Source: a virus
Taxonomy: Duplodnaviria > Heunggongvirae > Uroviricota > Caudoviricetes
IMG/VR virus record: IMGVR_UViG_2531839665_000026
Coordinates: 1 to 13,781 of that record
DNA length: 13,781 nt
Reading direction: 5' to 3' (one strand)
The notes beneath the pieces are model-generated. The model searched no databases. It worked only from the letters and a program-made list of their open reading frames with translations, and was not told the origin of the DNA. Made by a program: the position numbers and the translations under genes. Shown in pieces: positions 449 to 12,246 of the stretch (the stretch's first letter is position 1; every line of letters begins with the position of its first letter).

Positions 449-2200
449 ATGATTCAGGACGCTTTTGTGCGCCAGCGTGCGCGGCAACTTTACTGGCAGG
501 GTTATCCGCCCGCAGAAATATCACGTCTGATGGGAATAAACCCGAACACGATTTATGCGTGGAAAAAACGCGACCAGTGGGATGAAACGCCACCCGTGCA
601 GCGTGTCACGCAGTCCATCGATGCGCGCCTCATCCAGCTCACTGAAAAACAGAATAAAACAGGTGGTGACTTCAAGGAAATAGACCTGCTGACCCGGCAG
701 CTTAAAAAACTGCATGATGGCCAGCCGGATGCGACGGCCACAGGAAAGAAAGGCCGGGCGAAAAAACTCAAAAATCATTTCACGCCGGAACAGATTGCCG
801 CACTGCGGGAAAAAATCATCAGCAGGCTGGAGTGGCATCAGCGGGGCTGGTTTGACTCCCTGACCCTTTGCAGGGAAGCCGGGATACGTAACAGGATGAT
901 CCTGAAATCCCGACAGATTGGGGCGACCTGGTATTTTGCACAGGAAGCACTGCTGATGGCGCTGCGTGACGATGTGGCGCAACCTTACCAGCGTAACCAG
1001 ATTTTTTTGTCTGCGTCGCGTCGTCAGGCGTTCCAGTTTAAAAGCATTATTCAGAAGGCCGCGGCTGAAGTTGATGTGGAGCTGAAAGGGGGCGATAAAA
1101 TCATCCTCTCAAACGGCGCAGAGCTGCATTTTCTCGGCACTTCTGCTGCGTCGGCACAGTCCTATACGGGCAATTTTTATTTTGATGAATTTTTCTGGGT
1201 CAGTCGCTTTGCCGAACTGCGCAAGGTGGCTGGCGCTATGGCAACCCTCAGCGGACTGCGGCGCACCTACTTCTCCACGCCATCCACCGAAACGCACGAG
1301 GCATACGCCTACTGGAACGGCGACCGCTGGAACGAGAAAAAGGCCTCGCATAAACGCCAGCGTTTTTCTGTGGACTGGAAAACGCTGCATAACGGGCTTA
1401 TCTGCCCTGACCGGACGTGGCGGCAAATTGTCACGCTGGAAGATGTGGTTAATCACGGCTGGAAACACACCGATATTGACGAAATCCGTGATGAAAACAC
1501 CGAAGACGAGTTCCTCAATCTCTATATGTGTGAGTTTGTTCGCGAAGGGGAATCGGCATTTAACCTGAATATCCTGATTGGCTGCGGTGTTGACGGATAC
1601 GACGACTGGAAAGACTGGAAACCTTTTGCTCCCCGCCCGATGGGGAATCGTCCGGTATGGATTGGGTATGACGCAAACGGCAGCAGTGGCAACGGGGACA
1701 GCGGCGCTGTGTCCGTGGTGGTTCCTCCGGCTGTTCCTGGTGGCCGTTTTCGAACGGTGGAGACGCGACGCGTTCAGGGGCTGGAGTTTGAAGAACAGGC
1801 CAGAGTCATTGAAGAGTTCACGTGTCGCTACAACGTGGAACACATCGGCATTGATGTGACGGGCGGGAACGGGGAGGCTGTTTATCAGATAGTGAAACGG
1901 TTTTTCCCTGCCGCTATTCCGTACACCTTCACGCTGTCATCCAAACGGTCGCTGGTACTGAAAATGCAGCAAATAATGCGTGCCGGACGGTGGGAATACG
2001 ATCGCGCCGAACGCGAGCTGGTCGCGGCCTTTAACGCCGTGCGTAAGGTGAAAACACCGGGTGGCTTTATCACTTACGAAACGGACCGCGCGAGGGGGAT
2101 CAGCCACGGCGACCTTGCGTGGGCAACCATGCTTGCTGTCATTAACGAACCAATTGGCGGCGAAGGAGAAAAACGAGCGTTTCACGGTTATGGAGTTCTG
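449..2200 (+). CDS. P: Terminase large (ATPase/nuclease) subunit gpP-like; no in-frame stop, frame continues into the portal
   Basis: N-terminal HTH-like segment (YWQGYPPAEISRLMGINPNTIYAWKKRDQWDE), Walker A-like KSRQIGATWYF, Walker B-like FYFDEFFW, and acidic nuclease-domain motifs (WIGYDANGSSGNGDSGAVSVV, HGDLAWATMLAV). The 584 codons before the internal ATG at 2201 compare with about 590 aa for P2 gpP. AGGGGG lies 4 nt before the ATG at 449. Confidence 0.85.
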
Positions 2201-3247
2201 ATGAGCAGAAAAAATAAAAAAGTGCGCATGAGTTCACGCATTGATCTCGCTGATGCGCTCAGGAAAGAATCATCGCTCAGTGCATTCACATTTGATGGTC
2301 CTTATCGCCTGACCGGGCATGACCTGCTGGACAATATGTACTGTGCTGATAACGGGCGGTGGTATGAAACCCCGGTGGACTGGTACGGTCTGGCAAGAGC
2401 CGCCCGGCAAACGTCCTGGCATCAGTCTGCGCTTTACTTTAAGCGCAATGTATTGCTCGGTTGCTACATCCCGCACCCGCTGCTTTCCCGGCAGGATTTC
2501 TCGGCGCTGGCGCTGGACTGGTTTGTGTTCGGTAACGCATTCCTTGAGCTTCGGAGCAATATGCTCGGCGAACCACTTAAATTACGGCACGCACTGGCGA
2601 AATACATGCGACGCGGAAGCGATCTTGAATCATGGTGGTATGTGCAGGATGGCAAGGACGCGTTTCAGTTTCGCCCTGGCAAAGTGTGCCACCTGATGAA
2701 TCCGGACATTAACCAGGAAATTTACGGCATGCCGGAATATCTCGGCGCATTACTCTCGGCCAGCCTGTCTCATTCGGCGGACATGTTCAGAAAACTGTAT
2801 TACGACAATGGATCCCACGCCGGGTGCATCATCTACATCGGTGCAGCGCAGGTAAACCGCGAAAGCATGGACTCCCTGAAAGAAACGCTACAGGGTGCGC
2901 GTGGTGGTGGTGCGTTTAAAAACGTGCTCATTCATGCGCCCAACGGGGGCAAAGAGGGGGTGCAAATTTTGCCGTTCCAGCAGATCACCGCAAAGGATGA
3001 GTTCATGAATGTTAAGGCGGCATCCCGTGATGATGTGCTGGCTGCGCACCGCGTTCCGCCGCAACTGATGGGGGCGATGCCGGGTGAAAAAAGTGCGTTT
3101 GGTGATGTGGAGAAGGCCGCGCGGGTTTACGCAATTAACGAGCTGATGCCCGTCATGGAGGCCATGAAGCATATCAATGACTGGCTTGGCGAAGAGGTGA
3201 TCCGATTTAACCCTTACGCACTGCTGGACACCCAGCCCACATCCTGA
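2201..3247 (+). CDS. Q: Portal protein gpQ-like (348 aa if initiated at the internal ATG at 2201)
   Basis: Follows P on the same strand as in P2. ATG at 2201 is preceded by GGAG at 2192-2195 (5-nt spacer). Length of 348 aa compares with about 344 aa for P2 gpQ. It has a basic N-terminus (MSRKNKKVRMSSR) followed by a conserved-looking core. Stop codon TGA at 3245-3247. Confidence 0.7.
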   Translation: MSRKNKKVRMSSRIDLADALRKESSLSAFTFDGPYRLTGHDLLDNMYCADNGRWYETPVDWYGLARAARQTSWHQSALYFKRNVLLGCYIPHPLLSRQDFSALALDWFVFGNAFLELRSNMLGEPLKLRHALAKYMRRGSDLESWWYVQDGKDAFQFRPGKVCHLMNPDINQEIYGMPEYLGALLSASLSHSADMFRKLYYDNGSHAGCIIYIGAAQVNRESMDSLKETLQGARGGGAFKNVLIHAPNGGKEGVQILPFQQITAKDEFMNVKAASRDDVLAAHRVPPQLMGAMPGEKSAFGDVEKAARVYAINELMPVMEAMKHINDWLGEEVIRFNPYALLDTQPTS

Positions 3248-3272: not shown

Positions 3273-3297
3273 CCGGGGCATAAAAAATTTATGCCCC
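3273..3297. other. Perfect 11-bp-stem hairpin (CGGGGCATAAA / TTTATGCCCCG, loop AAA) 26 nt after the Q stop
   Basis: Inverted repeat read directly. There is no U tract on either side, so it is not a canonical intrinsic terminator. It could be an RNA-stabilising stem or a protein-binding palindrome in the cos-proximal region. Confidence 0.6.
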
Positions 3298-3575
3298 GAC
3301 TCTCCAGCTCCTGTATCAATCAGATAATTTCACGACGTCTTCCAGCTTATCGCCATCATCGACGGTCAGGCTCTTACGCAATCCCACTGCGCTGACTGCA
3401 TGTTCTCGCCGCCTCAGTGCGATTTTGACGGCCTTATCTGCTACCCCATCAAATCAAAAGTCCTCACGTCTTTTTCATGCTCAGCGTGAGAAATACAGCC
3501 ATTCTGTTGTGTCGCTGCGACATCGTTCAGGGGATGCTATTTACCCCCTGAAACGCGGGCTGTTCCCCCGTCACC

Positions 3576-3601
3576 TGCGCGCAGAAAAAGCGCGTTTTTT
3601 T
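3576..3601 (+). terminator. Intrinsic terminator for the P-Q transcript
   Basis: GC stem CGCGC (3578-3582) / GCGCG (3590-3594), loop AGAAAAA, followed by T7 (3595-3601). Confidence 0.6.
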
Positions 3602-3609
3602 GTGCACGC

Positions 3610-3628
3610 ACGGATCCTTGACGGATCC
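3610..3628. repeat. Direct repeat ACGGATCC x2 separated by 3 bp
   Basis: ACGGATCC at 3610-3617 and 3621-3628, immediately after the T-run of the plus-strand terminator. Confidence 0.5.
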
Positions 3629-3671
3629 AACTGCCACGCGGGCCGGAAGGGCAAAAATTCGTTCAAAAAAA

Positions 3672-3698
3672 TTGTGCAAATTTGTGCACTATTGTGCA
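3672..3698. repeat. Three helically phased direct repeats TTGTGCA at exact 10-bp spacing
   Basis: TTGTGCA at 3672-3678, 3682-3688 and 3692-3698. The middle copy contains the palindrome GTGCAC. They lie in the non-coding cos-expected region between Q and the cargo operon. Confidence 0.6.
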
Positions 3699-3705
3699 TT
3701 GAAAT

Positions 3706-3728
3706 AAACGCCCTGGAAGAGGGCGTTT
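3706..3728 (-). terminator. Stem-loop terminator ending the minus-strand cargo operon (partly bidirectional)
   Basis: AAACGCCCT (3706-3714) / AGGGCGTTT (3720-3728), loop GGAAG, 10 nt past the stop of the 112-aa gene. On the minus-strand RNA the stem is followed by AUUUC. Confidence 0.6.
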
Positions 3729-3738
3729 TGGCTCATTT

Positions 3739-4077
3739 CTATAGCTTTGATGCAGGCTGGGCTAGGTCTCCTTTGATGCCAGTGTTTACAACCTGACAAG
3801 CCTCTTTGAGTACCCAGTCAACAGCGTCTTTCCATGCTCCGGTTTCGGCTGGCGGATTCTCACGCTTTACCAGTTCATAGAATCGTACTGCTCTAACCAG
3901 TCCATCTGACGGTTTTGCCTGTAGTGCAGCCTGAGCTATGCGGTATGCCTGGAGCATACGGGCGTCGTTGATATCCATTCCGAACGGAATTTCTGATGAT
4001 TGTGATTCTGCATCTTCAAGCCTGGCAATTTCTTTACGTAAAAAGTATTTCAACTCTTGTTTTTGTTTTCTGTTCAT
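3739..4077 (-). CDS. Hypothetical protein, 112 aa, last gene of the cargo operon
   Basis: ORF with AGGGAA-type SD 6 nt upstream of ATG at 4077. Charged and probably helical ([26 protein letters not shown]...). No family recognised. AT-rich relative to the phage backbone. Confidence 0.55.
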
Positions 4078-4405
4078 GCGTTTTTCCCTTTTTGTCTGTC
4101 ACTTCTCTCCTGATAATTTCATTGCACAAATCCACGCACTCATTGCAGATGCAAACAGACGGTCCGGCAATCACCTTTGTGACTTCGTACTGAGATTTAT
4201 TGCAGAAGCTGCAATAAATCGTCTCCTCGCCTGAAGTCCATGTTTTGCTGGTTTCGCCAGACATCAGTTGTTTGAGGTCTTTTTCACGACGAAGAACTAT
4301 CTGGCCACATTCAGCTATTTTTTGGATGTTGACATTTTCTTCTTTCGCCAGCGCTTCCATCCGCTCAATCAGTCGCTGCGCTTTTTCTCTGTCAATGTGT
4401 TGCAT
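4034..4405 (-). CDS. Small protein (123 aa) with a ClpX-type C4 zinc-ribbon domain
   Basis: Residues around 62-100, [39 protein letters not shown], align almost position for position with the N-terminal zinc-binding domain of E. coli ClpX as I recall it ([40 protein letters not shown]). GGGGG SD lies 5 nt before ATG at 4405. The last 44 nt overlap the next gene. Confidence 0.65.
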
Positions 4406-4439
4406 TGTGTCCCCCTTGTTTATGTTCCCGGATTAAAGT

Positions 4440-4463
4440 CATCAGGGCGGATGCGCCCTGATG
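4440..4463. other. Intra-operon perfect hairpin between the parR-like and zinc-ribbon genes
   Basis: CATCAGGGCG (4440-4449) / CGCCCTGATG (4454-4463), loop GATG. A third copy of CGCCCTGAT follows at 4484-4492. Confidence 0.5.
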
Positions 4464-4468
4464 TTGTG

Positions 4469-4780
4469 TTATTCGGGAAATAACGCCCTGATATTTCCGG
4501 CCATCCGACTGGTTATCTGTGTGGTTGGTACTGGCTGTGACGCGGGGCGTTCTGTCCTGGTTTGTGTCACTGATAACGCCTCATCGTCAGCCCATGCAGC
4601 CAGTCGGTAAGCCTCTGCCGGATTCATTTTCAGAAGTGCCAGCCCGGCCAGAAAAGCCACACGTTGGCCGCTTTTGCGGGCTTCTGGTGTAAGGCTGTCC
4701 AGCCAGGCGCATGCTTCGCCTTCGTTCTTGACGGCGGCGGGCTTCAGATAGAAACTTATCCGTCTGGTTGGTGTCGTCAT
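4469..4780 (-). CDS. parR: ParR-like small DNA-binding protein (103 aa from internal ATG)
   Basis: Translation from ATG at 4780 (MTTPTRRISFYLKPAAVKNEGEACAWLDSLTPEARKSGQRVAFLAGLALLKMNP...NIRALFPE) parallels plasmid R1 ParR as I recall it (..RTIAFKLNP...CDTLDSIPQGERSRLNRAALTAGLALYRQDP...NILRSLFPKE). GGAG lies 7 nt upstream, inside the end of parM. There is a 4-nt gap after the parM stop. The upstream 45 codons of the ORF-track entry overlap parM and are not used. Confidence 0.65.
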   Translation of the reverse strand: MTTPTRRISFYLKPAAVKNEGEACAWLDSLTPEARKSGQRVAFLAGLALLKMNPAEAYRLAAWADDEALSVTQTRTERPASQPVPTTQITSRMAGNIRALFPE

Positions 4781-4784
4781 TGGT

Positions 4785-5744
4785 TTACTCCTTGTCCATT
4801 GCGTACAGCCCATTAACCAGAGCAAACTGTGGCACCCCGTCCGCGATGAAAGTCGCATTAACTCCGCAGGCTTCGCGGATAGCGGGTGCCGCAATCTCCG
4901 CCCCGCCACCGACAACCATCACCCGCCCGTAACCCGAAAAACCCGCCAGCGCGCGGATCACTCGTTGTTTCAGTGTTTCTTCCTTTTCACGAATAACCGC
5001 CATCAGGCTGTCGTAATGCGCGTCATTGTGGATGTGCTGGCGCAGCCAGGCTTCATCGTGGCGATGTTCGATAATGGTATTGGCGATATGGTGACTGGTA
5101 CGCATACCGTTAGTGGCCATCACCGACAGTACGGCATCGGCTATCAGGGAAACGCCTACGTGTGGATCGCAAAACACCTGGCTGATACCTGCCAGTTGTC
5201 CCTGGACCTTTGCCACATCCAGCGTGGTTCCGCCTAAATCCACAATCAGCAGGGATTCAAACGGACTCATGTCAGCCAGAGCCTTAAAGCCAGCCGGAAT
5301 GGATTCAGGCATAACCCGCACGTTACGGATAGTGAATGCTTCGCCGTTCTGGTACTCCACCGGGCGCATAACGTTCGCTTTTTTGCGGTTGATGTTGGCC
5401 ATGTCCGGCTGTGCGTTTGTGTCGAAATACTCGCTCAGTGGCAGGGTGACAACCACATCCACCTCCTGTGGCGTGATGCCTGATTTGACCAGTGCGTGAT
5501 GAATGGCAATGACATTCACATCGCTGTATTGGTATTGCGTGTCGGTCGTCTGGACAAAGCGATCGCTGACCGGATCAAAACCGTAGCGCACGCCATCAAG
5601 CATGTAGTTCGCGGGCTGCGTGCCACTGAACGGCGCAGACCATTCCGACTTGAAGCTGTTCGGGCTGATGGCGTTGCGGCGTTCGCCGTTCTCAGTCCAT
5701 GCCAGCTTGATGTTGGTGGAGCCGTCGTCGATACAAATTTTCAT
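4785..5744 (-). CDS. parM: ParM/StbA-like actin-fold segregation ATPase (319 aa)
   Basis: Alignable along its whole length to plasmid R1 ParM (StbA) as I recall it. Shared blocks include IDDGSTNIKL, YSDVNVIAIHHAL, VMPESIPAG, DLGGTTLD and VVGGGAE. Length of 319 aa compares with about 320 aa for R1 ParM. Confidence 0.8.
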   Translation of the reverse strand: MKICIDDGSTNIKLAWTENGERRNAISPNSFKSEWSAPFSGTQPANYMLDGVRYGFDPVSDRFVQTTDTQYQYSDVNVIAIHHALVKSGITPQEVDVVVTLPLSEYFDTNAQPDMANINRKKANVMRPVEYQNGEAFTIRNVRVMPESIPAGFKALADMSPFESLLIVDLGGTTLDVAKVQGQLAGISQVFCDPHVGVSLIADAVLSVMATNGMRTSHHIANTIIEHRHDEAWLRQHIHNDAHYDSLMAVIREKEETLKQRVIRALAGFSGYGRVMVVGGGAEIAAPAIREACGVNATFIADGVPQFALVNGLYAMDKE

Positions 5745-5776
5745 GTCGCTTTTCCTTATGTTGATTAATTAATCGT

Positions 5777-5811
5777 TTACGGGATTCTGAAATCCCGTTT
5801 TTGCCTGTTTT
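5777..5811. repeat. Repeat R1: 35-bp hairpin-containing unit in the A/parM intergenic space (candidate parC-like site or promoter)
   Basis: TTACGGGATTCTGAAATCCCGTTTTTGCCTGTTTT. The internal stem ACGGGAT/ATCCCGT is followed by a T-rich tail on the plus strand. Confidence 0.6.
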
Positions 5812-5820
5812 GTGCGCGCT

Positions 5821-8643
5821 TCATATATCGCTGCGCGTTTTTTGCTCATTTACGGGATTCGTGAGTCCCGTTTCTGTCTGTTTTTTGTTTCCACTGGTCA
5901 GGCCACCCTGCAGCAGGTCTGCTTTGCGGTTGGCGCGTTCAGTGGTTTCACTGATTCTCTGTGCGTGCTCTGCGTCACGGATGGCGCGCAGCATGTCAGA
6001 AAGCACGGTAACGGGGGTTTTCATGGTGTTCTGGTCCTGCTGAAGTGTGGATGCCAGACGTGCGGCGGCTTCGGGGTCTGATGCCCCCAGTTGTTCCAGA
6101 TAGCTGGCGACCGGGTTATGGCGGATCTCTGTGCTGCTTACGCCGTGATTACGGCTCAGGCGCTGCCAGAGCTGCGTGATTCGGCTGTCCGGGCGGGTAT
6201 CCGGTTTGCGTACAATTTCAAATCCCTGCGGTGCAATGATGCTGCCGTCAACGTACAGGCTGCCGCCCCGTAGCAGGTGCTGCATCTGCTGTTCACCGAT
6301 ATGCAGGCCGAGAGATTCGGCAGACTCCCGCCATTCTTTAGCGAGTAATTCGTGGTTATCAGGCAAAGGCCGCTGCTGTTTGCGGCTCTGTGTCCAGCTC
6401 TGCATTTCATCACTGCTGTTTTTTGCCTGTTTGTCACGAAGCGAACGCATCAGCGCCCGGCGTTCGTGCCGTTTCAGTGAGCGCATCCATTCGTTCACTT
6501 CAACGCCATCAGGGAGCTGCGGCCACGGTGCTGGCTGTTCTTCCGGCTGTTCTGTCCCGTTGTTGTTCGTTTCCTGTACACGGGGACAGTTATTGCCACG
6601 AGTCCAAGGGGCGGCAGGGCCGCCCTGAAGGTCAAAACCATTTTCGCGGGCGCTGTCTTCCGCTTCCGGTTTACGTCTTACCAGCTTCCAGTTATCCGGA
6701 TGTGTGCACACACGGGAAGACTCCCCGATGAGTGGTGACCAGATCCCGTAAATCTGTACGCTCTGTTCGCCGTAATCGTTCAGCTCATCTGCGAGGTCGT
6801 AGGCGGTGCGAATCAGGTAGTCTTTGCGTGGAACAAGTACGCCGCCCTGTTTCTCAATGTAGGAGGCAAAACATCCGGCATCAGCGGCAGCGAGCACTGC
6901 ATCCATTGCGTCATCCTTCAGCCGTTGCGGGCCTTCCGGGTTGCGTGCCATCTGGCTGGCAAGGCGACGCAGTTCACGCCACACCTGACGGGAGGGGATG
7001 CCAAAGAACTGGAACTGGCGGACCCGGTGAAGGCGCGCCCAGCCAATGGCGCGTTCCACGCTCTCGGTCATTGATTTTCCGGTTTCGTGGTCAACGCGTG
7101 GTTTGCCTGTTTTCGGGTCGATGCCATCCACGGCGCGGCTGTCCAGGTTCTTTCCGATGTAGGTGGCGATGTAGCTGGTTGGCGTGCCTTTTGAGCCGTC
7201 GACGTACTCCGCTTTAAAACGCGGAGTTATGTCATCGCCCAGCTCGTGGCGGTCTTCCTGAATGGCAATATCGCAGACGTGGGACACGATGGTTTCAATC
7301 TCGTCCGGATGTGCAAAGACCATCATATGCCAGTGCACGGTGCCGTCATGGTGAGGCTCCACCGTGCGGATGCCATACCAGCGCAGGCCGTCGCGGTTCA
7401 GTTTCTTGCGGACCGCCGCAAAAAACGTGTTAACCAGGTAATCGCTGGAGTCGCGCATGGTGGCCCCGTTCCATTTGGGATTCGGATGACCGTTCTCTGT
7501 TGTAGCGTGGTATTTTGACGGGCAGGTGACAGTCAGAAACACCGCTCTGTCGCCACGGGCTTCGGCCAGAAGTTCCAGTCCCTTCATGGTGGCCATCATT
7601 TCTGCCTTACGGTGAACCGGGTTACTTACTCCCGCGTAATACACTGTCTCGAGATCAATCGTGAACCCGTCTTCATTTTCCAGCATGAAACTTTTCAGGA
7701 AATCGCGTGTTTTCTCGCGCTGTGCGCGAAACTCGCTTAACGCGTCCTGGCTCAGATAGGGTGATGTTTTTCTGGAAACCAGACAGGCGGCGCGGAGTTG
7801 TTCTTCTCTCCACTCGCAACGTAACAGCCACAATTTGCGTTTCCACCAGTCCGCACAGGTCAGGCGAAGGATTGCACCCGGCAGCAGTTCTGTGTCCGGT
7901 TCGTTCCTCCGGTCTTTGTCTGTTGTCAGTGCGTCATAATGTGGAGGCATGGTGTGCAGATGTAACGCCATGCGAGCCAGCAGCTGATACGCCTTCAGCG
8001 TTATATCCATGGTCAGCTCGCCATCGGTCGCGCCAAAGCCATCGCAGAGTTTTTCGAAGGTGCTGCTGAACATTGCCGCCGTCATGACGGCCAGTGTCTG
8101 TATCTGGTGTTTGTTGAGCTGCGGCAGGTAAAGTAAATCGTCCAGACGTTCACGTCCGGCAAGGGAGCGATAACCCGGAGTCAGCCAGCGTCCGTCAGTG
8201 CGGGCCAGACGTTCCAATATTTTGCGCAGGGTTCCGCGTGCATAGCGTTCCGCCTGCCAGCTCTTTTTGCCTTTCCGGCGATCGGCTTCCTGCTTTTTGC
8301 GCAGGAAGGAGAGGTGGCGAATAAGCGGATCGCGCAGATAGGACGGCAGCAGGCGCAGCGAGGCCATGGCTTCATCCACCGCACCGCGTGCCTGTTTTCT
8401 GGCGTCTCTGGCCAGTGTGATGGTTTTGTCCTGCTTTTCCTGTGCGTCCAGGCTTTTATTAATCAGGTTGCCCAGCGGCGTTGCGGAGAACGCCGCATCA
8501 GCCATTTCCTGGCGTCGCTCGTTCTCTACCCGGTAAGCATCCAGCCAGGAGGAAAGCGCGGATTCAGGTGCGGGGATCCCCGTACCTTCACGCCCTACTG
8601 CGTGGCGCGGTTGTTGCCAGTCCCTGATGTACTCTGTCGTCAT
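5821..8643 (-). CDS. A: Rolling-circle replication initiator gpA-like (HUH endonuclease), 940 aa
   Basis: Long minus-strand ORF with an HUH-type motif (TVHWHMMVF) and paired tyrosines (TSYIATYIGK), as in the P2 gene A protein. It sits downstream of cox and the small early genes, as in P2. It is longer than P2 gpA (about 761 aa) because of a C-terminal extension. Confidence 0.85.
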   Translation of the reverse strand: MTTEYIRDWQQPRHAVGREGTGIPAPESALSSWLDAYRVENERRQEMADAAFSATPLGNLINKSLDAQEKQDKTITLARDARKQARGAVDEAMASLRLLPSYLRDPLIRHLSFLRKKQEADRRKGKKSWQAERYARGTLRKILERLARTDGRWLTPGYRSLAGRERLDDLLYLPQLNKHQIQTLAVMTAAMFSSTFEKLCDGFGATDGELTMDITLKAYQLLARMALHLHTMPPHYDALTTDKDRRNEPDTELLPGAILRLTCADWWKRKLWLLRCEWREEQLRAACLVSRKTSPYLSQDALSEFRAQREKTRDFLKSFMLENEDGFTIDLETVYYAGVSNPVHRKAEMMATMKGLELLAEARGDRAVFLTVTCPSKYHATTENGHPNPKWNGATMRDSSDYLVNTFFAAVRKKLNRDGLRWYGIRTVEPHHDGTVHWHMMVFAHPDEIETIVSHVCDIAIQEDRHELGDDITPRFKAEYVDGSKGTPTSYIATYIGKNLDSRAVDGIDPKTGKPRVDHETGKSMTESVERAIGWARLHRVRQFQFFGIPSRQVWRELRRLASQMARNPEGPQRLKDDAMDAVLAAADAGCFASYIEKQGGVLVPRKDYLIRTAYDLADELNDYGEQSVQIYGIWSPLIGESSRVCTHPDNWKLVRRKPEAEDSARENGFDLQGGPAAPWTRGNNCPRVQETNNNGTEQPEEQPAPWPQLPDGVEVNEWMRSLKRHERRALMRSLRDKQAKNSSDEMQSWTQSRKQQRPLPDNHELLAKEWRESAESLGLHIGEQQMQHLLRGGSLYVDGSIIAPQGFEIVRKPDTRPDSRITQLWQRLSRNHGVSSTEIRHNPVASYLEQLGASDPEAAARLASTLQQDQNTMKTPVTVLSDMLRAIRDAEHAQRISETTERANRKADLLQGGLTSGNKKQTETGLTNPVNEQKTRSDI
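5849..5883. repeat. Repeat R2: second copy of the 35-bp unit, lying inside the last codons of gene A
   Basis: TTACGGGATTCGTGAGTCCCGTTTCTGTCTGTTTT. 29 of 35 positions match R1, with most differences in the hairpin loop. It sits 72 bp to the right of R1. Confidence 0.6.
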
Positions 8644-9087: not shown

Positions 9088-9318
9088 TTAATGGAGTTTG
9101 TTTTGCTGCTGGATGAGCTGTTGAAGCTCGTGCAGATCATCCGCCAGATAACTGAAAACAGAGGCGGAATAAATGTTTGATAGTGCGTGGCTGCGCTCAT
9201 GCAGCATATTGATGTGCATGATTTGCGCGACGCGTGATGCGCGGAAAAGTCTACGGTTGATTTCAGTCTGGATGTGACGACGCGCAGCGTATGCGCGCTG
9301 TTGTTTGCGGTTTGCCAT
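9088..9318 (-). CDS. Hypothetical early protein, 76 aa
   Basis: ORF with AGAGG SD 7 nt before ATG at 9318. Basic N-terminus (MANRKQQRAYAARRHIQTEINRR). Confidence 0.55.
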   Translation of the reverse strand: MANRKQQRAYAARRHIQTEINRRLFRASRVAQIMHINMLHERSHALSNIYSASVFSYLADDLHELQQLIQQQNKLH

Positions 9319-9361: not shown

Positions 9362-9404
9362 GAGTTGAGAATCTCGGGGTGGCGAGACGTACAGGGTTCT
9401 CAAC
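9362..9404. repeat. Inverted repeat GTTGAGAA ... TTCTCAAC (25-nt loop), with a third direct copy of GTTGAGAATC at 9540-9549
   Basis: GTTGAGAATC at 9364-9373, its inverse TTCTCAAC at 9397-9404, and GTTGAGAATC again at 9540-9549. Both direct copies are preceded by CTTTGCTC. Confidence 0.55.
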
Positions 9405-9495
9405 ACCGGAGAGCAAAGAATCCGGCCCGACCGAAGTCGGCCCCGTACGCCCCGCCATAATTCTGACGCGAAAAAGACGTGGCAATACAGTACGC

Positions 9496-9518
9496 ACAAA
9501 AAAACCGCTGGCGCGGTT
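9496..9518 (-). terminator. Intrinsic terminator on the minus strand, downstream of the 67/88/99-aa gene block
   Basis: Stem AACCGC (9503-9508) / GCGGTT (9513-9518), loop TGGC. The plus-strand A7 run (9498-9504) becomes the U tract of a minus-strand transcript. Confidence 0.6.
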
Positions 9519-9590
9519 ATGCGCTTTGCTCTGTATCGGGTTGAGAATCCCGGCACCCGTTTTATGAGGTGCAGCGGAAATGTAACCTGA

Positions 9591-9640: not shown

Positions 9641-9940
9641 TTACTGGTTCAGAAAAAAATCAAAAACCTTGTCAATGCGTTGCAGCAGCTCTTGCTGTAT
9701 TGCTTCCGGCGTTTCCGGTTCGCCGGGTGCCTCCAACGTCGCGCAGAAATCAGCGATTTCATGATGGAGTGTCAGGCGAATGGCAGGAGCCGTGGTTCTG
9801 GCGTGCTCCAGCTCATCCAGCAGTGCCAGCACAGCAGACGGCGAGAGCATTGCGCGAAACGCCAGTAATTTTTGAGGCGTTGCCATTCGTTGCAGGGCAA
9901 ATGCCAGTTCGCGTAGCTTCTGGTGGTTGATGGTGCTCAT
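9641..9940 (-). CDS. Hypothetical protein, 99 aa
   Basis: ORF whose ATG overlaps the upstream stop as ATGA (9937-9940). No family recognised. Confidence 0.55.
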   Translation of the reverse strand: MSTINHQKLRELAFALQRMATPQKLLAFRAMLSPSAVLALLDELEHARTTAPAIRLTLHHEIADFCATLEAPGEPETPEAIQQELLQRIDKVFDFFLNQ

Positions 9941-11958: not shown

Positions 11959-12246
11959 CTAAAGTCCCAGCCACAACAACCATGCGTCGCGGCGTTCTTT
12001 CGGTTGCTCAAAAAACGCTTTGCGCATGCCTTCGTTAAATGCTGGCAGATATACCCAGTTTTCTGATGCACGCGTCTTTACTGAACCTGGTTTCACAAAG
12101 TCAATTGTTGGTAGCTTTGCTGCGTCAATCATGGTTCTGACTGTGGATTCCTTGCGGCCGATCATCTTGGCGAATAGTTGATATGGCACCGCTTCAAGTG
12201 GATATGGTGCTACCTGAATGAACCCCCCAAGCTCTGATTCGCTCAT
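11959..12246 (-). CDS. cox: Cox-like excisionase / early-operon regulator (95 aa)
   Basis: Matches P2 Cox as I recall it (VPYQLFAKMIGRKESTVRTMIDAAKLPTIDF...ENWVYLPAFNEGMRKAFFEQPKERRDAWLLWLGL against ...IPYQEFAKLIGKSTGAVRRMIDKGKLPVIDM...EYWVYLPAWNNGLKLAYESRPKEIRDGWLMWLGL). AGGGAGA SD. Divergent from C. Confidence 0.85.
   Translation of the reverse strand: MSESELGGFIQVAPYPLEAVPYQLFAKMIGRKESTVRTMIDAAKLPTIDFVKPGSVKTRASENWVYLPAFNEGMRKAFFEQPKERRDAWLLWLGL

What the first reader, a model, noticed from the sequence alone, without database searches (positions are those of the whole stretch)
3739..5811. Unrecognised four-gene cargo operon (ParM-like, ParR-like, ClpX-zinc-ribbon protein, unknown) at the P2 tin/old accessory locus
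P2 itself carries its non-essential tin and old exclusion genes between A and the cos/portal end. At that position this element carries a different co-directional cassette: parM-like (4785-5744), parR-like (4469-4780), a 123-aa protein whose C-terminal half is a ClpX-type C4 zinc ribbon (4034-4405), and a 112-aa protein I cannot place (3739-4077). The genes are tightly packed (a 4-nt gap, a 63-nt gap with a hairpin, a 44-nt overlap). They are preceded by a duplicated 35-bp hairpin repeat and end at a stem-loop at 3706-3728, so they look like one transcription unit. By eye the distal part (about 3740-4440) is more AT-rich than the phage backbone, which fits imported cargo. I do not recognise this gene combination as any exclusion or defence system known from this locus. 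It could be a new exclusion or defence module, a plasmid-like maintenance module, or a module that manipulates the host ClpXP protease.
Basis: partly seen in the sequence, partly recalled or inferred. Interest (0 to 1): 0.85.

Follow-up and report, generated by a model that had tools for sequence, protein, structure and literature searches.

The report
Known P88 partition and accessory genes
This stretch is the already catalogued end of the early operon of the common E. coli P2-like phage P88: a plasmid-type ParM/ParR DNA-segregation pair that is fixed in that phage lineage, followed by two small swappable accessory genes (a free-standing copy of the ClpX protease's zinc-finger docking domain and an Ea22-associated protein) whose functions have not been tested.

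Summary
The four ORFs, their spacing, the hairpins and the AT-rich distal part are all real. The ParM, ParR and ClpX-zinc-finger calls hold under HMM, PDB and structure searches. They do not form an unrecognised four-gene system. The window is 98% identical to Escherichia phage P88 (Xuanwuvirus). RefSeq annotates the same four genes, and Rousset et al. 2022 list this arrangement in Table S5 with the same protein accessions. They note that about a quarter of P2-like phages carry a putative partition system.

Comparison splits the interval in two. parM-parR (4469-5744) is a lineage-fixed backbone module. It occurs in 1303 of 5426 complete E. coli genomes, almost always on the chromosome, and is under strong purifying selection. 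Only 3699-4443 is a variable slot; 67% of sampled P88-like loci carry neither ORF3 nor ORF4 there.

ORF3 and ORF4 also assort independently of each other and of parMR. ORF3 has an orphan helical hairpin fused to a domain 72-78% identical to the E. coli ClpX N-domain. The best untested idea is that it acts as a decoy for ClpX adaptors and substrates. ORF4 is a minimal member of an Ea22-associated mosaic prophage family. No protein matches a known defence system. The 123-aa length and 44-nt overlap come from a one-base homopolymer indel.

The parts
5846..5887 (-). Upstream repeat copy 1, inside the last codons of gene A. It contains the imperfect palindrome at 5852-5871.
   Evidence: Direct repeat family D2 and inverted repeat I1. 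Motif search. RNA fold -9.0 kcal/mol, z -3.2. Copy and 73-nt spacing conserved across P88-like loci.
5773..5814 (-). Upstream repeat copy 2, in the 76-nt gpA-parM spacer. It contains the perfect palindrome ACGGGATT-N4-AATCCCGT at 5779-5798. It is a candidate ParR operator/parC half (inferred). On the + strand it reads as a terminator.
   Evidence: RNA fold -11.4 kcal/mol, z -4.0. Stems conserved and loops variable among loci.
4785..5744 (-). parM, encoding an actin-like segregation ATPase of 319 aa.
   Evidence: StbA_N 3.5e-82 and ParM_N 6.7e-68. phrog_691 partition protein 4.9e-90. Full-length match to R1 ParM 1mwk, E 1.8e-91. 87 of 88 homologous loci intact, pN/pS 0.09.
4469..4780 (-). parR (stbB-type adaptor), 103 aa.
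   Evidence: Plasmid_stab_B 1.6e-24. phrog_2515 3.2e-58. RefSeq start agrees. 57 of 57 full-length copies intact, pN/pS 0.24.
4440..4463 (.). 10-bp GC-rich hairpin that marks the end of the conserved parMR block and the proximal edge of the variable slot.
   Evidence: Inverted repeat I10. Fold -18.4 kcal/mol, z -4.4. Matches in P88-like phages with other cargo stop here (query position 1144 = window 4443).
3699..4443 (.). Variable accessory slot of the P88-like A-Q hotspot. In this window it is occupied by ORF3 and ORF4.
   Evidence: 51 IMG/VR P88-like loci with both anchors show 25 lengths (512-1911 bp) and 40 unique sequences. Alternative contents include Ead_Ea22, DUF4760, DUF3800, AAA_15 + OLD-like TOPRIM, Phd/Doc and Mom-like genes. 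GC 0.42-0.45.
4034..4405 (-). ORF3: an orphan N-terminal helical hairpin (aa 6-48), a linker, and a ClpX-type C4 zinc-binding domain (aa 64-99). The canonical length is 110 aa. It reads 123 aa here because of a 1-nt homopolymer deletion near 4080.
   Evidence: zf-C4_ClpX 3.6e-16. phrog_6797 1.6e-57. E. coli ClpX ZBD 1ovx 3.8e-18. AF2 model pLDDT 74.5. Foldseek to 2ds5/2ds6/2ds7/2ds8/1ovx: rmsd 0.6-1.6 A at 71-78% identity. Indel.
3739..4077 (-). ORF4: a 112-aa all-helical protein and a minimal member of a mosaic prophage family. The C-terminal module (aa ~57-104, nt 3767-3908) is shared with ead/Ea22-like proteins.
   Evidence: phrog_26213 2.6e-28 and phrog_660 4.4e-28. 591 homologues, some carrying PF13935. 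Alignment A2. DNA of the C-module matches lambdoid prophage genes at ~90%. pN/pS 0.18. No fold match.
3706..3728 (-). Stem-loop followed by UUUAUUUC. It is the probable intrinsic terminator of the early-operon tail.
   Evidence: Sequence. Fold -16.6 kcal/mol, z -4.0. No other sense-strand terminator-like site lies between about 9420 and here.
5821..8643 (-). Context: gene A (replication endonuclease, 940 aa). parM follows it directly.
   Evidence: Phage_GPA 3.8e-128. In the phage database, its 3' 650 nt occur only in the 14 parMR-carrying records.

Best explanation
The interval is the distal tail of the early operon (cox to A) of a P88-like P2-family temperate phage. It consists of two unrelated parts.

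(1) parM-parR is a type II (actin-like) partition module that is a fixed backbone feature of this phage lineage. The likely mechanism is that ParR binds the two conserved 20-bp palindromes at the gpA/parM junction, and ParM-ATP filaments captured by ParR push sister copies of the circular, non-integrated phage genome apart. Phage circles present after infection, or after excision and replication, would then be distributed to both daughter cells. The binding site and the timing are inferred. The protein identities are shown.

(2) Downstream of a hairpin lies a swappable accessory slot. In this phage it holds two small 'ea-type' genes.
- ORF3 is a free-standing paralogue of the ClpX N-terminal zinc-binding domain fused to an orphan helical hairpin. 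It most likely acts as a competitor or decoy for proteins that dock on the ClpX N-domain (SspB, RssB, lambda-O-like and MuA-like substrates, labile antitoxins). That would change which proteins ClpXP degrades while the early operon is on. This role is inferred and I put it at roughly 0.35.
- ORF4 is a minimal member of an Ea22-associated mosaic family with no assignable activity.

The four genes are probably co-transcribed, but they are not one functional system.
For: Identity and context:
- 98.3% identity to phage P88 over 3300-5900, with the same four genes annotated in P88 and RefSeq.
- Integrase, C-like HTH and Cox upstream, and Phage_GPA immediately upstream.

parMR identity and maintenance:
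- Pfam, PHROG and PDB matches, with ParM aligning end to end to R1 ParM at E 1.8e-91.
- Present in 1303 of 5426 complete E. coli genomes.
- Perfect co-occurrence with this gpA 3' end in phage records, 14 of 14.
- 87 of 88 parM and 57 of 57 parR copies intact, with pN/pS 0.09 and 0.24.
- Nearest plasmid ParMs are only ~52-53% identical, so this is not a recent pickup.

Centromere candidate: two palindromes at a fixed 73-nt spacing, with conserved stems and variable loops, across the fetched P88-like loci.

Variable slot:
- Boundaries at 3698 and 4443.
- 25 length classes among 51 loci. ORF3 is in 15, ORF3 plus complete ORF4 in 11, and neither in 34.
- The first co-directional cargo gene always starts at position 38-39 after the flank, leaving no room for its own promoter.

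Independence of the parts:
- ORF3 occurs alone with Phd/Doc.
- An ORF4-like gene occurs alone.
- ORF3 homologues sit in Salmonella P2-likes without parMR and in ea-gene arrays of phage-plasmids D6 and PhiR41_1. Their neighbours there are unrelated to ORF4.

ORF3 as a ClpX N-domain copy:
- 71-78% identity and rmsd 0.6-1.6 A to the solved E. coli ZBD structures.
- The equivalents of F16 and I46 (F67, I97) are kept. These lie in the hydrophobic patch that binds lambda O, SspB, RssB and trigger factor (PMC7804408; alignment).
- The ClpX N-domain dimerises independently and is needed for MuA, FtsZ and adaptor recognition (PMC5415555).

Prior description: Rousset 2022 text and Table S5.
Against: - 1449 of 1451 parMR places are chromosomal, so a partition system has no obvious job in the stable lysogen.
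- The candidate centromere has only two sites rather than an iteron array. Phage D6 shows repeated ATTCTCA-type motifs upstream of its parM (my reading of the sequence).
- No sigma-70-like promoter was found upstream of parM, so the timing of expression is unknown.
- On the + strand the same palindromes read as intrinsic terminators. They may only insulate gene A from antisense transcription.
- For ORF3, nothing shows binding to any ClpX partner. This sub-lineage has Cys where ClpX and most relatives have Tyr (Y34 equivalent). The pN/pS of 0.45 rests on very few substitutions. A zinc ribbon plus helical hairpin could equally be a nucleic-acid-binding regulator.
- Two homopolymer frameshifts in this window could mean this copy is decaying.
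Confidence: 0.7

Rival explanations
1. ORF3 and ORF4 together (or ORF3 alone) form a new superinfection-exclusion or anti-phage defence module carried in the P2 hotspot. For example, they might block phages that need ClpX, such as Mu-like phages.
For: - The slot is a documented defence hotspot (PMC9122126).
- Other occupants in P88-like phages include OLD-like TOPRIM + AAA_15, DUF3800, DUF4760 and Phd/Doc.
- A 2026 preprint predicts an antiviral association for 15-32% of unknown proteins in P2 loci. In the same study, 6 of 8 unknown P4 loci protected when tested.
- ORF3 and the ORF4 N-module are linked by an ATGA overlap in 13 of 15 ORF3-positive IMG/VR loci.
Against: - No PADLOC hit. The best is 12 bits at E 0.013.
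- Most defence-like occupants I could identify (DUF4760, DUF3800, AAA_15 + OLD-TOPRIM, Phd/Doc) lie on the opposite strand. ORF3 and ORF4 continue the early lytic operon with no room for their own promoter, so they are probably silent in the lysogen.
- ORF3 homologues sit in 'ea' arrays of phage-plasmids with unrelated neighbours.
- The pair was not among the systems tested by Rousset et al.; ClpX appears only in their locus table.
Confidence: 0.15
2. parMR exists to let P88-like phages persist as true plasmid prophages (a phage-plasmid lifestyle). This would apply for instance when attB is absent or occupied.
For: - Rousset et al. suggest this.
- One complete 34,461-bp circular record of a P88-like genome is deposited as plasmid pZ1323PEC0009-2.
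- The only other phage with a related ParM (47% identity) is the P1-like phage-plasmid D6.
- Full-length ORF3 homologues also occur in phage-plasmids.
Against: - 1449 of 1451 places in complete E. coli genomes are chromosomal.
- The phages carry an integrase, and phiSM integrates at attB (PMC6456863).
- A single circular contig could simply be an excised replicating form.
- gpA-type replication is not known to give copy-controlled plasmid maintenance (general knowledge of P2).
Confidence: 0.15
3. All four genes form one novel functional system, as the first reader proposed (defence, maintenance plus ClpXP manipulation acting together).
For: The genes are co-directional, tightly packed and probably co-transcribed.
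Against: - parMR occurs without ORF3 and ORF4 in 34 of 51 sampled loci, and in about 1230 of 1303 E. coli genomes.
- ORF3 occurs without parMR.
- ORF4 modules occur in lambdoid prophages.
Confidence: 0.03
4. ORF3 has nothing to do with ClpXP. Its zinc ribbon and helical hairpin form a small DNA- or RNA-binding regulator of phage or cargo genes.
For: - Many small phage regulators are zinc ribbons, such as Ogr/Delta and Com family members (annotated).
- Actinobacterial small proteins join the same ClpX-type finger to an HTH-like C-terminal region (alignment).
- ORF3 sits first in the slot, ahead of changing cargo.
Against: - 71-78% identity to the host ClpX domain, including the adaptor-binding patch residues. 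That is more conservation than a generic zinc ribbon needs.
- No HTH or other nucleic-acid-binding domain was detected.
Confidence: 0.15

Closest known systems
ParMRC (type II) partition system of plasmid R1/NR1 (stbA/stbB)
   Same: ParM aligns end to end with R1 ParM (E 1.8e-91), including the DDGSTNIK and DLGGTTLD nucleotide-binding motifs. A Plasmid_stab_B ParR gene follows 4 nt downstream. The gene order is upstream site, parM, parR.
   Different: The module sits in an integrating phage and is almost always chromosomal. ParM is only ~52-53% identical to any plasmid ParM. The candidate centromere is two 20-bp palindromes 73 nt apart, one of them inside gene A, rather than two blocks of short direct repeats flanking a promoter (the R1 description is from general knowledge). 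No promoter was recognised.
Escherichia phage P88 gp17-gp20 and the 'StbA + Plasmid_stab_B + zf-C4_ClpX + hypothetical' arrangement in Rousset et al. 2022, Table S5
   Same: Same genes in the same order at 98% nucleotide identity. The table lists WP_001163776 + WP_001080490, the accessions RefSeq gives the ORF3 and ORF4 homologues in E. coli E143.
   Different: This window has two single-base homopolymer indels, one fusing P to Q and one extending ORF3. The published work catalogues the genes but does not test them.
N-terminal zinc-binding domain (ZBD) of E. coli ClpX
   Same: C4 zinc ribbon at 71-78% identity and rmsd 0.6-1.6 A. The F16 and I46 equivalents of the adaptor/substrate patch are conserved.
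   Different: There is no AAA+ module (110 aa in total). It is preceded by an orphan helical hairpin found in only 11 cluster representatives out of 1.84 billion. This sub-lineage has Cys at the Y34 equivalent.
Ead/Ea22-like early accessory proteins of lambdoid phages
   Same: ORF4's C-terminal 48 aa are near-identical to the C-termini of proteins that carry PF13935 or are named ead/Ea22-like. It has the same mosaic, module-swapping behaviour and sits in an early operon.
   Different: ORF4 itself gives no PF13935 hit. It lacks the middle module of its relatives.
P2 old/tin exclusion genes and other P2 A-Q hotspot cargo
   Same: Same genomic slot between gpA and gpQ next to cos. Sister phages carry an OLD-like TOPRIM + AAA_15 pair there.
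   Different: No sequence or domain similarity between ORF3/ORF4 and Old, Tin or any PADLOC model. ORF3 and ORF4 are co-directional with the early operon.
Phage-encoded inhibitors of host AAA+ proteases (T4 PinA and T7 Gp4.5 against Lon). Recalled from general knowledge and not checked here.
   Same: These are small early phage proteins that change host proteolysis. That is the role proposed for ORF3.
   Different: The target is different (Lon), the folds are unrelated, and the ORF3 activity is untested.

Membership tests
Type II ParMRC partition system | Actin-fold ATPase ParM with both ParM domains and nucleotide-binding motifs | tested here: met
   StbA_N 1-157 and ParM_N 159-316. Full-length alignment to 1mwk at E 1.8e-91, with the DDGSTNIK, PESIPAG and DLGGTTLD motifs conserved.
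Type II ParMRC partition system | ParR adaptor gene immediately downstream of parM | tested here: met
   Plasmid_stab_B 1.6e-24 over the full profile, with a 4-nt gap from parM. phrog_2515 partition protein.
Type II ParMRC partition system | Upstream parC centromere made of repeated ParR-binding sites | tested here: inconclusive
   Two conserved 20-bp palindromes 73 nt apart. There is no iteron array like the repeated ATTCTCA-type motifs I read upstream of D6 parM. Binding cannot be tested here. The same hairpins read as + strand terminators.
Type II ParMRC partition system | Resides on, and stabilises, an extrachromosomal replicon | tested here: not met
   Location: 1449 of 1451 places in complete E. 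coli genomes are chromosomal, with one phage-sized circular plasmid record. Stabilisation itself is not testable with these tools.
P2-like A-Q hotspot cargo (Rousset 2022) | Lies between gpA and gpQ next to cos | tested here: met
   gpA at 5821-8643 and the P-Q genes at 449-3247 flank the interval. Definition from PMC9122126.
P2-like A-Q hotspot cargo (Rousset 2022) | Content varies between otherwise near-identical phages | tested here: met
   Met for 3699-4443 only: 25 length classes among 51 loci. Not met for parMR, which is present in every record sharing this gpA.
Known anti-phage defence systems (PADLOC-DB 2.0) | At least one protein matches a defence-system model | tested here: not met
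   No hits for ParM, ParR or ORF3. ORF4 gives only PDC-M28C at E 0.013 and 12 bits.
ClpX (AAA+ unfoldase) | N-terminal C4 zinc-binding domain | tested here: met
   zf-C4_ClpX 3.6e-16. 1ovx 3.8e-18. Foldseek rmsd 0.6-1.6 A.
ClpX (AAA+ unfoldase) | AAA+ ATPase module with ClpP-binding loop | tested here: not met
   The protein is 110 aa (123 aa here). The NCBIfam clpX equivalog scores 48.5 bits against a cutoff of 370.75, and only positions 6-52 of the model are matched. ORF3 is therefore a ZBD paralogue, not a ClpX.
Ead/Ea22-like family (PF13935) | Match to the Ead_Ea22 profile | tested here: not met
   No Pfam hit for ORF4 even at E 0.1. It shares only the C-terminal module with some PF13935-containing proteins such as P0157, P0161 and P0180.
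Phage-plasmid | Prophage maintained extrachromosomally rather than integrated | tested here: not met
   A tyrosine integrase is present. Copies are overwhelmingly chromosomal. phiSM integrates at attB. One circular 34.5-kb record is the exception.

The most novel reading that the evidence does not exclude
ORF3 could be a phage-made decoy of the ClpX N-domain. As a free zinc-binding-domain dimer, held together or targeted by its orphan helical hairpin, it would soak up ClpX adaptors and N-domain-dependent substrates, or cap ClpX's own N-domains. This would protect labile phage proteins or antitoxins, or deny ClpX to competitors such as Mu, while the early operon is on. It would be the first described phage protein that targets ClpXP substrate selection by copying the enzyme's own docking domain. 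A second open point is why about 24% of complete E. coli genomes keep an intact, strongly constrained actin-like DNA-segregation machine inside an integrated prophage.
Probability: 0.3. Interest if true: 0.6.

Novelty: already known. Interest (0 to 1): 0.3.

Why it matters
As a discovery, the finding adds little. The element is phage P88, the genes are annotated, and the arrangement is already published as one of many in the P2 hotspot.

Two real gaps remain, and this analysis sharpens both. First, an actin-like ParMRC module is conserved under strong purifying selection in an integrating phage found in roughly a quarter of complete E. coli genomes, and no experiment explains what it does there. 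Second, a small protein family copies the ClpX adaptor-docking domain and travels among P2-like phages and phage-plasmids. If it does retune ClpXP, it would be a new way for phages to control host proteolysis and a handy tool. Splitting the 'operon' into a fixed module and a swappable slot also tells anyone cloning the locus which pieces to test separately.

Tried and rejected
- PADLOC scan of all four proteins gave nothing usable.
- Pfam at E 0.1 and NCBIfam gave nothing for ORF4 or the ORF3 N-terminal domain.
- PDB sequence search for ORF4 and ParR gave no meaningful hit.
- Foldseek of the ORF4 model (pLDDT 68) against PDB and BFVD gave no match below E 0.3.
- Exhaustive phmmer search with the ORF3 N-terminal 58 aa found only 11 cluster representatives, all small relatives plus one likely coiled-coil artefact. 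The domain stays an orphan.
- I looked for a conserved ORF3 partner by comparing ORF4 with the genes flanking ORF3 homologues in D6 and PhiR41_1. There was no similarity, so I rejected an obligate two-gene system.
- I looked at substitutions in the upstream hairpin stems to decide between an RNA structure and a protein-binding site. The pattern is mixed and not decisive.
- The P2 cos sequence as I recalled it gave no match within 3 mismatches, so cos is not mapped here.
- Literature searches for P88, Xuanwuvirus, zf-C4_ClpX and phage ClpX-domain proteins found no functional study.
- I considered that the whole region is a decaying remnant because of the two frameshifts. I rejected this for the family because of the intact, constrained copies elsewhere. 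It remains possible for this particular copy.


Full report
**What is in the sequence**

The window has the layout of a P2-family temperate phage:
- a tyrosine integrase (12762-end, +) and a C-like HTH gene (+);
- Cox (11959-12246, -), followed by a long run of - strand early genes that ends in gene A (5821-8643, Phage_GPA 3.8e-128);
- on the + strand at the other end, terminase P and portal Q (449-3247).

HMM searches confirm three of the four assignments:
- ParM: StbA_N 3.5e-82 and ParM_N 6.7e-68.
- ParR: Plasmid_stab_B 1.6e-24.
- ORF3: zf-C4_ClpX 3.6e-16.
- ORF4: no Pfam hit, but it matches PHROG families of unknown function.

The duplicated upstream repeat is 42 nt long, at 5773-5814 and 5846-5887. 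Each copy carries ACGGGATT-N4-AATCCCGT (2 matches against 0.07 expected). The hairpins at 4440-4463 and 3706-3728 fold far better than shuffled controls. GC falls to 0.42-0.45 across ORF3 and ORF4.

**Two details are artefacts of this copy**

Alignment to phage P88 and to an E. coli chromosome shows two single-base differences, both in A-runs:
- An extra A at 2169 fuses P and Q into one 932-aa ORF.
- A missing base near 4080 extends ORF3 from 110 to 123 aa and creates the 44-nt overlap.

In relatives, ORF3 ends in an ATGA overlap with ORF4.

**It is a known element**

The region 3300-5900 is 98.3% identical to Escherichia phage P88 (Xuanwuvirus, Peduoviridae), where these genes are gp17-gp20. 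RefSeq annotates them as ParM, partitioning/stability protein, ClpX C4-type zinc finger protein and hypothetical protein.

Rousset et al. 2022 defined the gpA-gpQ interval as the P2 hotspot that holds old and tin. [quoted passage not shown] Their Table S5 lists 'StbA + Plasmid_stab_B + zf-C4_ClpX + hypothetical' with WP_001163776 and WP_001080490. These are the accessions RefSeq gives the ORF3 and ORF4 homologues in E. coli E143, to which this window is 98.7% identical over 3300-5900. The pair was not among the systems they tested. I found no functional study of it.

**The interval is two modules, not one**

Separate searches of complete E. coli genomes give different distributions:
- parMR (4444-5820) is in 1303 of 5426 genomes, and 1449 of 1451 places are chromosomal.
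- At least 80% of the distal part (3699-4443) is in only 72 genomes.

In the phage database, ParM and the 3' end of this long (940-aa) gpA occur in exactly the same 14 P88-like records. parMR is therefore a lineage trait rather than cargo. It is maintained by selection: 87 of 88 parM and 57 of 57 full-length parR copies are intact, with pN/pS of 0.09 and 0.24. These are comparisons to one reference, so the copies are not independent. The nearest plasmid ParMs are only ~52-53% identical, and that of phage-plasmid D6 is 47%.

I sampled 80 IMG/VR loci with near-identical ParM. The 51 that retain both flanks show 25 different lengths (512-1911 bp) and 40 unique sequences between the parR hairpin and the cos-side flank. 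ORF3 is present in 15, ORF3 plus complete ORF4 in 11, and neither in 34. Other occupants are:
- Ead/Ea22-like genes (the commonest);
- DUF4760;
- DUF3800;
- an AAA_15 + OLD-like TOPRIM pair;
- Phd/Doc;
- a Mom-like protein.

The variable slot is 3699-4443.

**ORF3 and ORF4 are not an obligate pair**

- ORF3 occurs alone next to a convergent Phd/Doc pair.
- An ORF4-type gene occurs alone.
- A 43%-identical ORF3 homologue sits in the same A-Q slot of Salmonella P2-likes that lack parMR.
- 48-51%-identical full-length homologues sit inside arrays of ea22/eaA-type genes in the phage-plasmids D6 and PhiR41_1/CMS-2020a. Their neighbours there have no similarity to ORF4.

ORF4 is a real gene (pN/pS 0.18) with 591 detected homologues. 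Its N-module and especially its C-terminal 48 residues recur in a mosaic family of Escherichia prophage proteins, some of which carry the Ead_Ea22 domain. ORF4 is a short member lacking the middle module. Its predicted four-helix structure matches nothing.

**What ORF3 is**

The AF2 model (pLDDT 74.5) shows a helical hairpin (aa 6-48), a disordered linker, and a zinc ribbon plus helix. The ribbon superposes on the solved E. coli ClpX zinc-binding domain at 0.6-1.6 A with 71-78% identity. E. coli ClpX is the best PDB hit, ahead of ClpX from other bacteria.

The equivalents of ClpX F16 and I46 (F67, I97) are kept. These residues lie in the hydrophobic patch that binds lambda O, SspB, RssB and trigger factor. 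The ClpX N-domain dimerises independently and is needed for MuA, FtsZ and adaptor recognition.

The N-terminal hairpin is an orphan: only 11 cluster representatives among 1.84 billion proteins. The most economical reading is a free N-domain that competes for ClpX clients and adaptors. Its adjacency to Phd/Doc in some phages is suggestive, because P1 Phd is a ClpXP substrate (general knowledge), but this is circumstantial. No binding has been shown, so I put this reading at about 0.35.

**How the tail is probably expressed**

- No sigma-70-like promoter is detected upstream of parM or ORF3.
- The first co-directional cargo gene always begins 38-39 nt after the conserved flank.
- No sense-strand terminator-like site lies between about 9420 and the stem-loop at 3706-3728.

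I infer that parMR, ORF3 and ORF4 are read as the tail of the early operon. They would be on during infection or induction and probably off in the lysogen. This fits an establishment or replication-phase role better than a lysogen-expressed defence. The defence-like occupants I could identify (DUF4760, DUF3800, AAA_15 + OLD-TOPRIM, Phd/Doc) lie on the opposite strand. This step is inference only.

**The palindromes**

Their stems and the 73-nt spacing are conserved across the fetched P88-like loci, while the loops vary. This suits a ParR operator or centromere. It also suits RNA hairpins, and on the + strand they score as terminators. Membership in ParMRC is met for ParM and ParR, inconclusive for parC, and not met for 'resides on a plasmid'. 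One 34,461-bp circular record of a whole P88-like genome, deposited as a plasmid, is the only hint of episomal life.

**Verdict**

It is wrong that this is an unrecognised four-gene unit. The interval is a known composite: a lineage-fixed ParMR module plus two independent accessory genes in a swappable slot.

Interest is low to moderate (0.3). The residual novelty is the untested ClpX-decoy idea, and the unexplained conservation of an actin-like segregation machine in an integrating prophage.

Noticed in passing
window 9375-9462 (-) and 9498-9572 (-): Rfam gathering-level matches to C4 antisense RNA (RF01695, 78.5 bits) and isrK (RF01394, 62.8 bits). They lie just upstream of a 76-aa 'Derepression' family ORF (9088-9318), and promoter-like and terminator-like sites flank them. 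This resembles a P1 immI-type antisense-RNA/antirepressor module placed ahead of gene A in the early region.
   Followed up: partly
window 449-3247 (+), position 2169: Terminase P and portal Q are fused into one 932-aa ORF by an extra A in an A-run, relative to P88 and E. coli E143. In those two, the genes overlap by 1 nt in different frames. This is either a sequencing error or an inactivating frameshift.
   Followed up: partly
L010 (NZ_CP148288.1, 1-34461): A complete P88-like genome, with integrase, parMR and an ORF4-like gene but no ORF3, is deposited as a circular 34.5-kb E. coli 'plasmid', pZ1323PEC0009-2. It could be an episomal prophage or an excised replicating form. I did not check whether the same strain's chromosome also carries it.
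   Followed up: no
In the phage database, the 3' 650 nt of the gene are found only in the parMR-carrying phages. The long C-terminal extension and parMR may therefore be functionally linked.
   Followed up: no
protein P0075: A 191-aa fusion of the ParM N-terminal part (PF06406) with the ORF4 C-terminal module is recorded on 143 contigs. It is a widespread deletion derivative that removes parR and ORF3.
   Followed up: no
L020 cargo region (IMGVR_UViG_2623620505_000004); also L023, L037, L070: Some P88-like phages carry, in the same slot and on the opposite strand, a GC-poor (0.35) pair: a 399-aa AAA_15 ATPase and a 172-aa OLD-like TOPRIM protein. This is a compact OLD-family-like candidate defence pair at the position of P2 old.
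   Followed up: partly
window 3274-3298 and 3577-3595 (+): A perfect 11-bp inverted repeat lies right after the portal stop. A strong + strand terminator-like hairpin (GCGCGC...GCGCGT followed by T7) lies in the cos-proximal spacer. Together with the + strand terminator readings at 4440-4463, 5779-5798 and 5852-5871, these form a series that could stop late P-Q transcription from running antisense into the early-operon tail.
   Followed up: no
window 9641-9940 (-): A 99-aa early-region ORF gives a weak, below-cutoff Ead_Ea22 match (E 1.5e-4, 22.8 bits against a cutoff of 27). Ea22-type modules may therefore also occur elsewhere in this phage's early operon.
   Followed up: no
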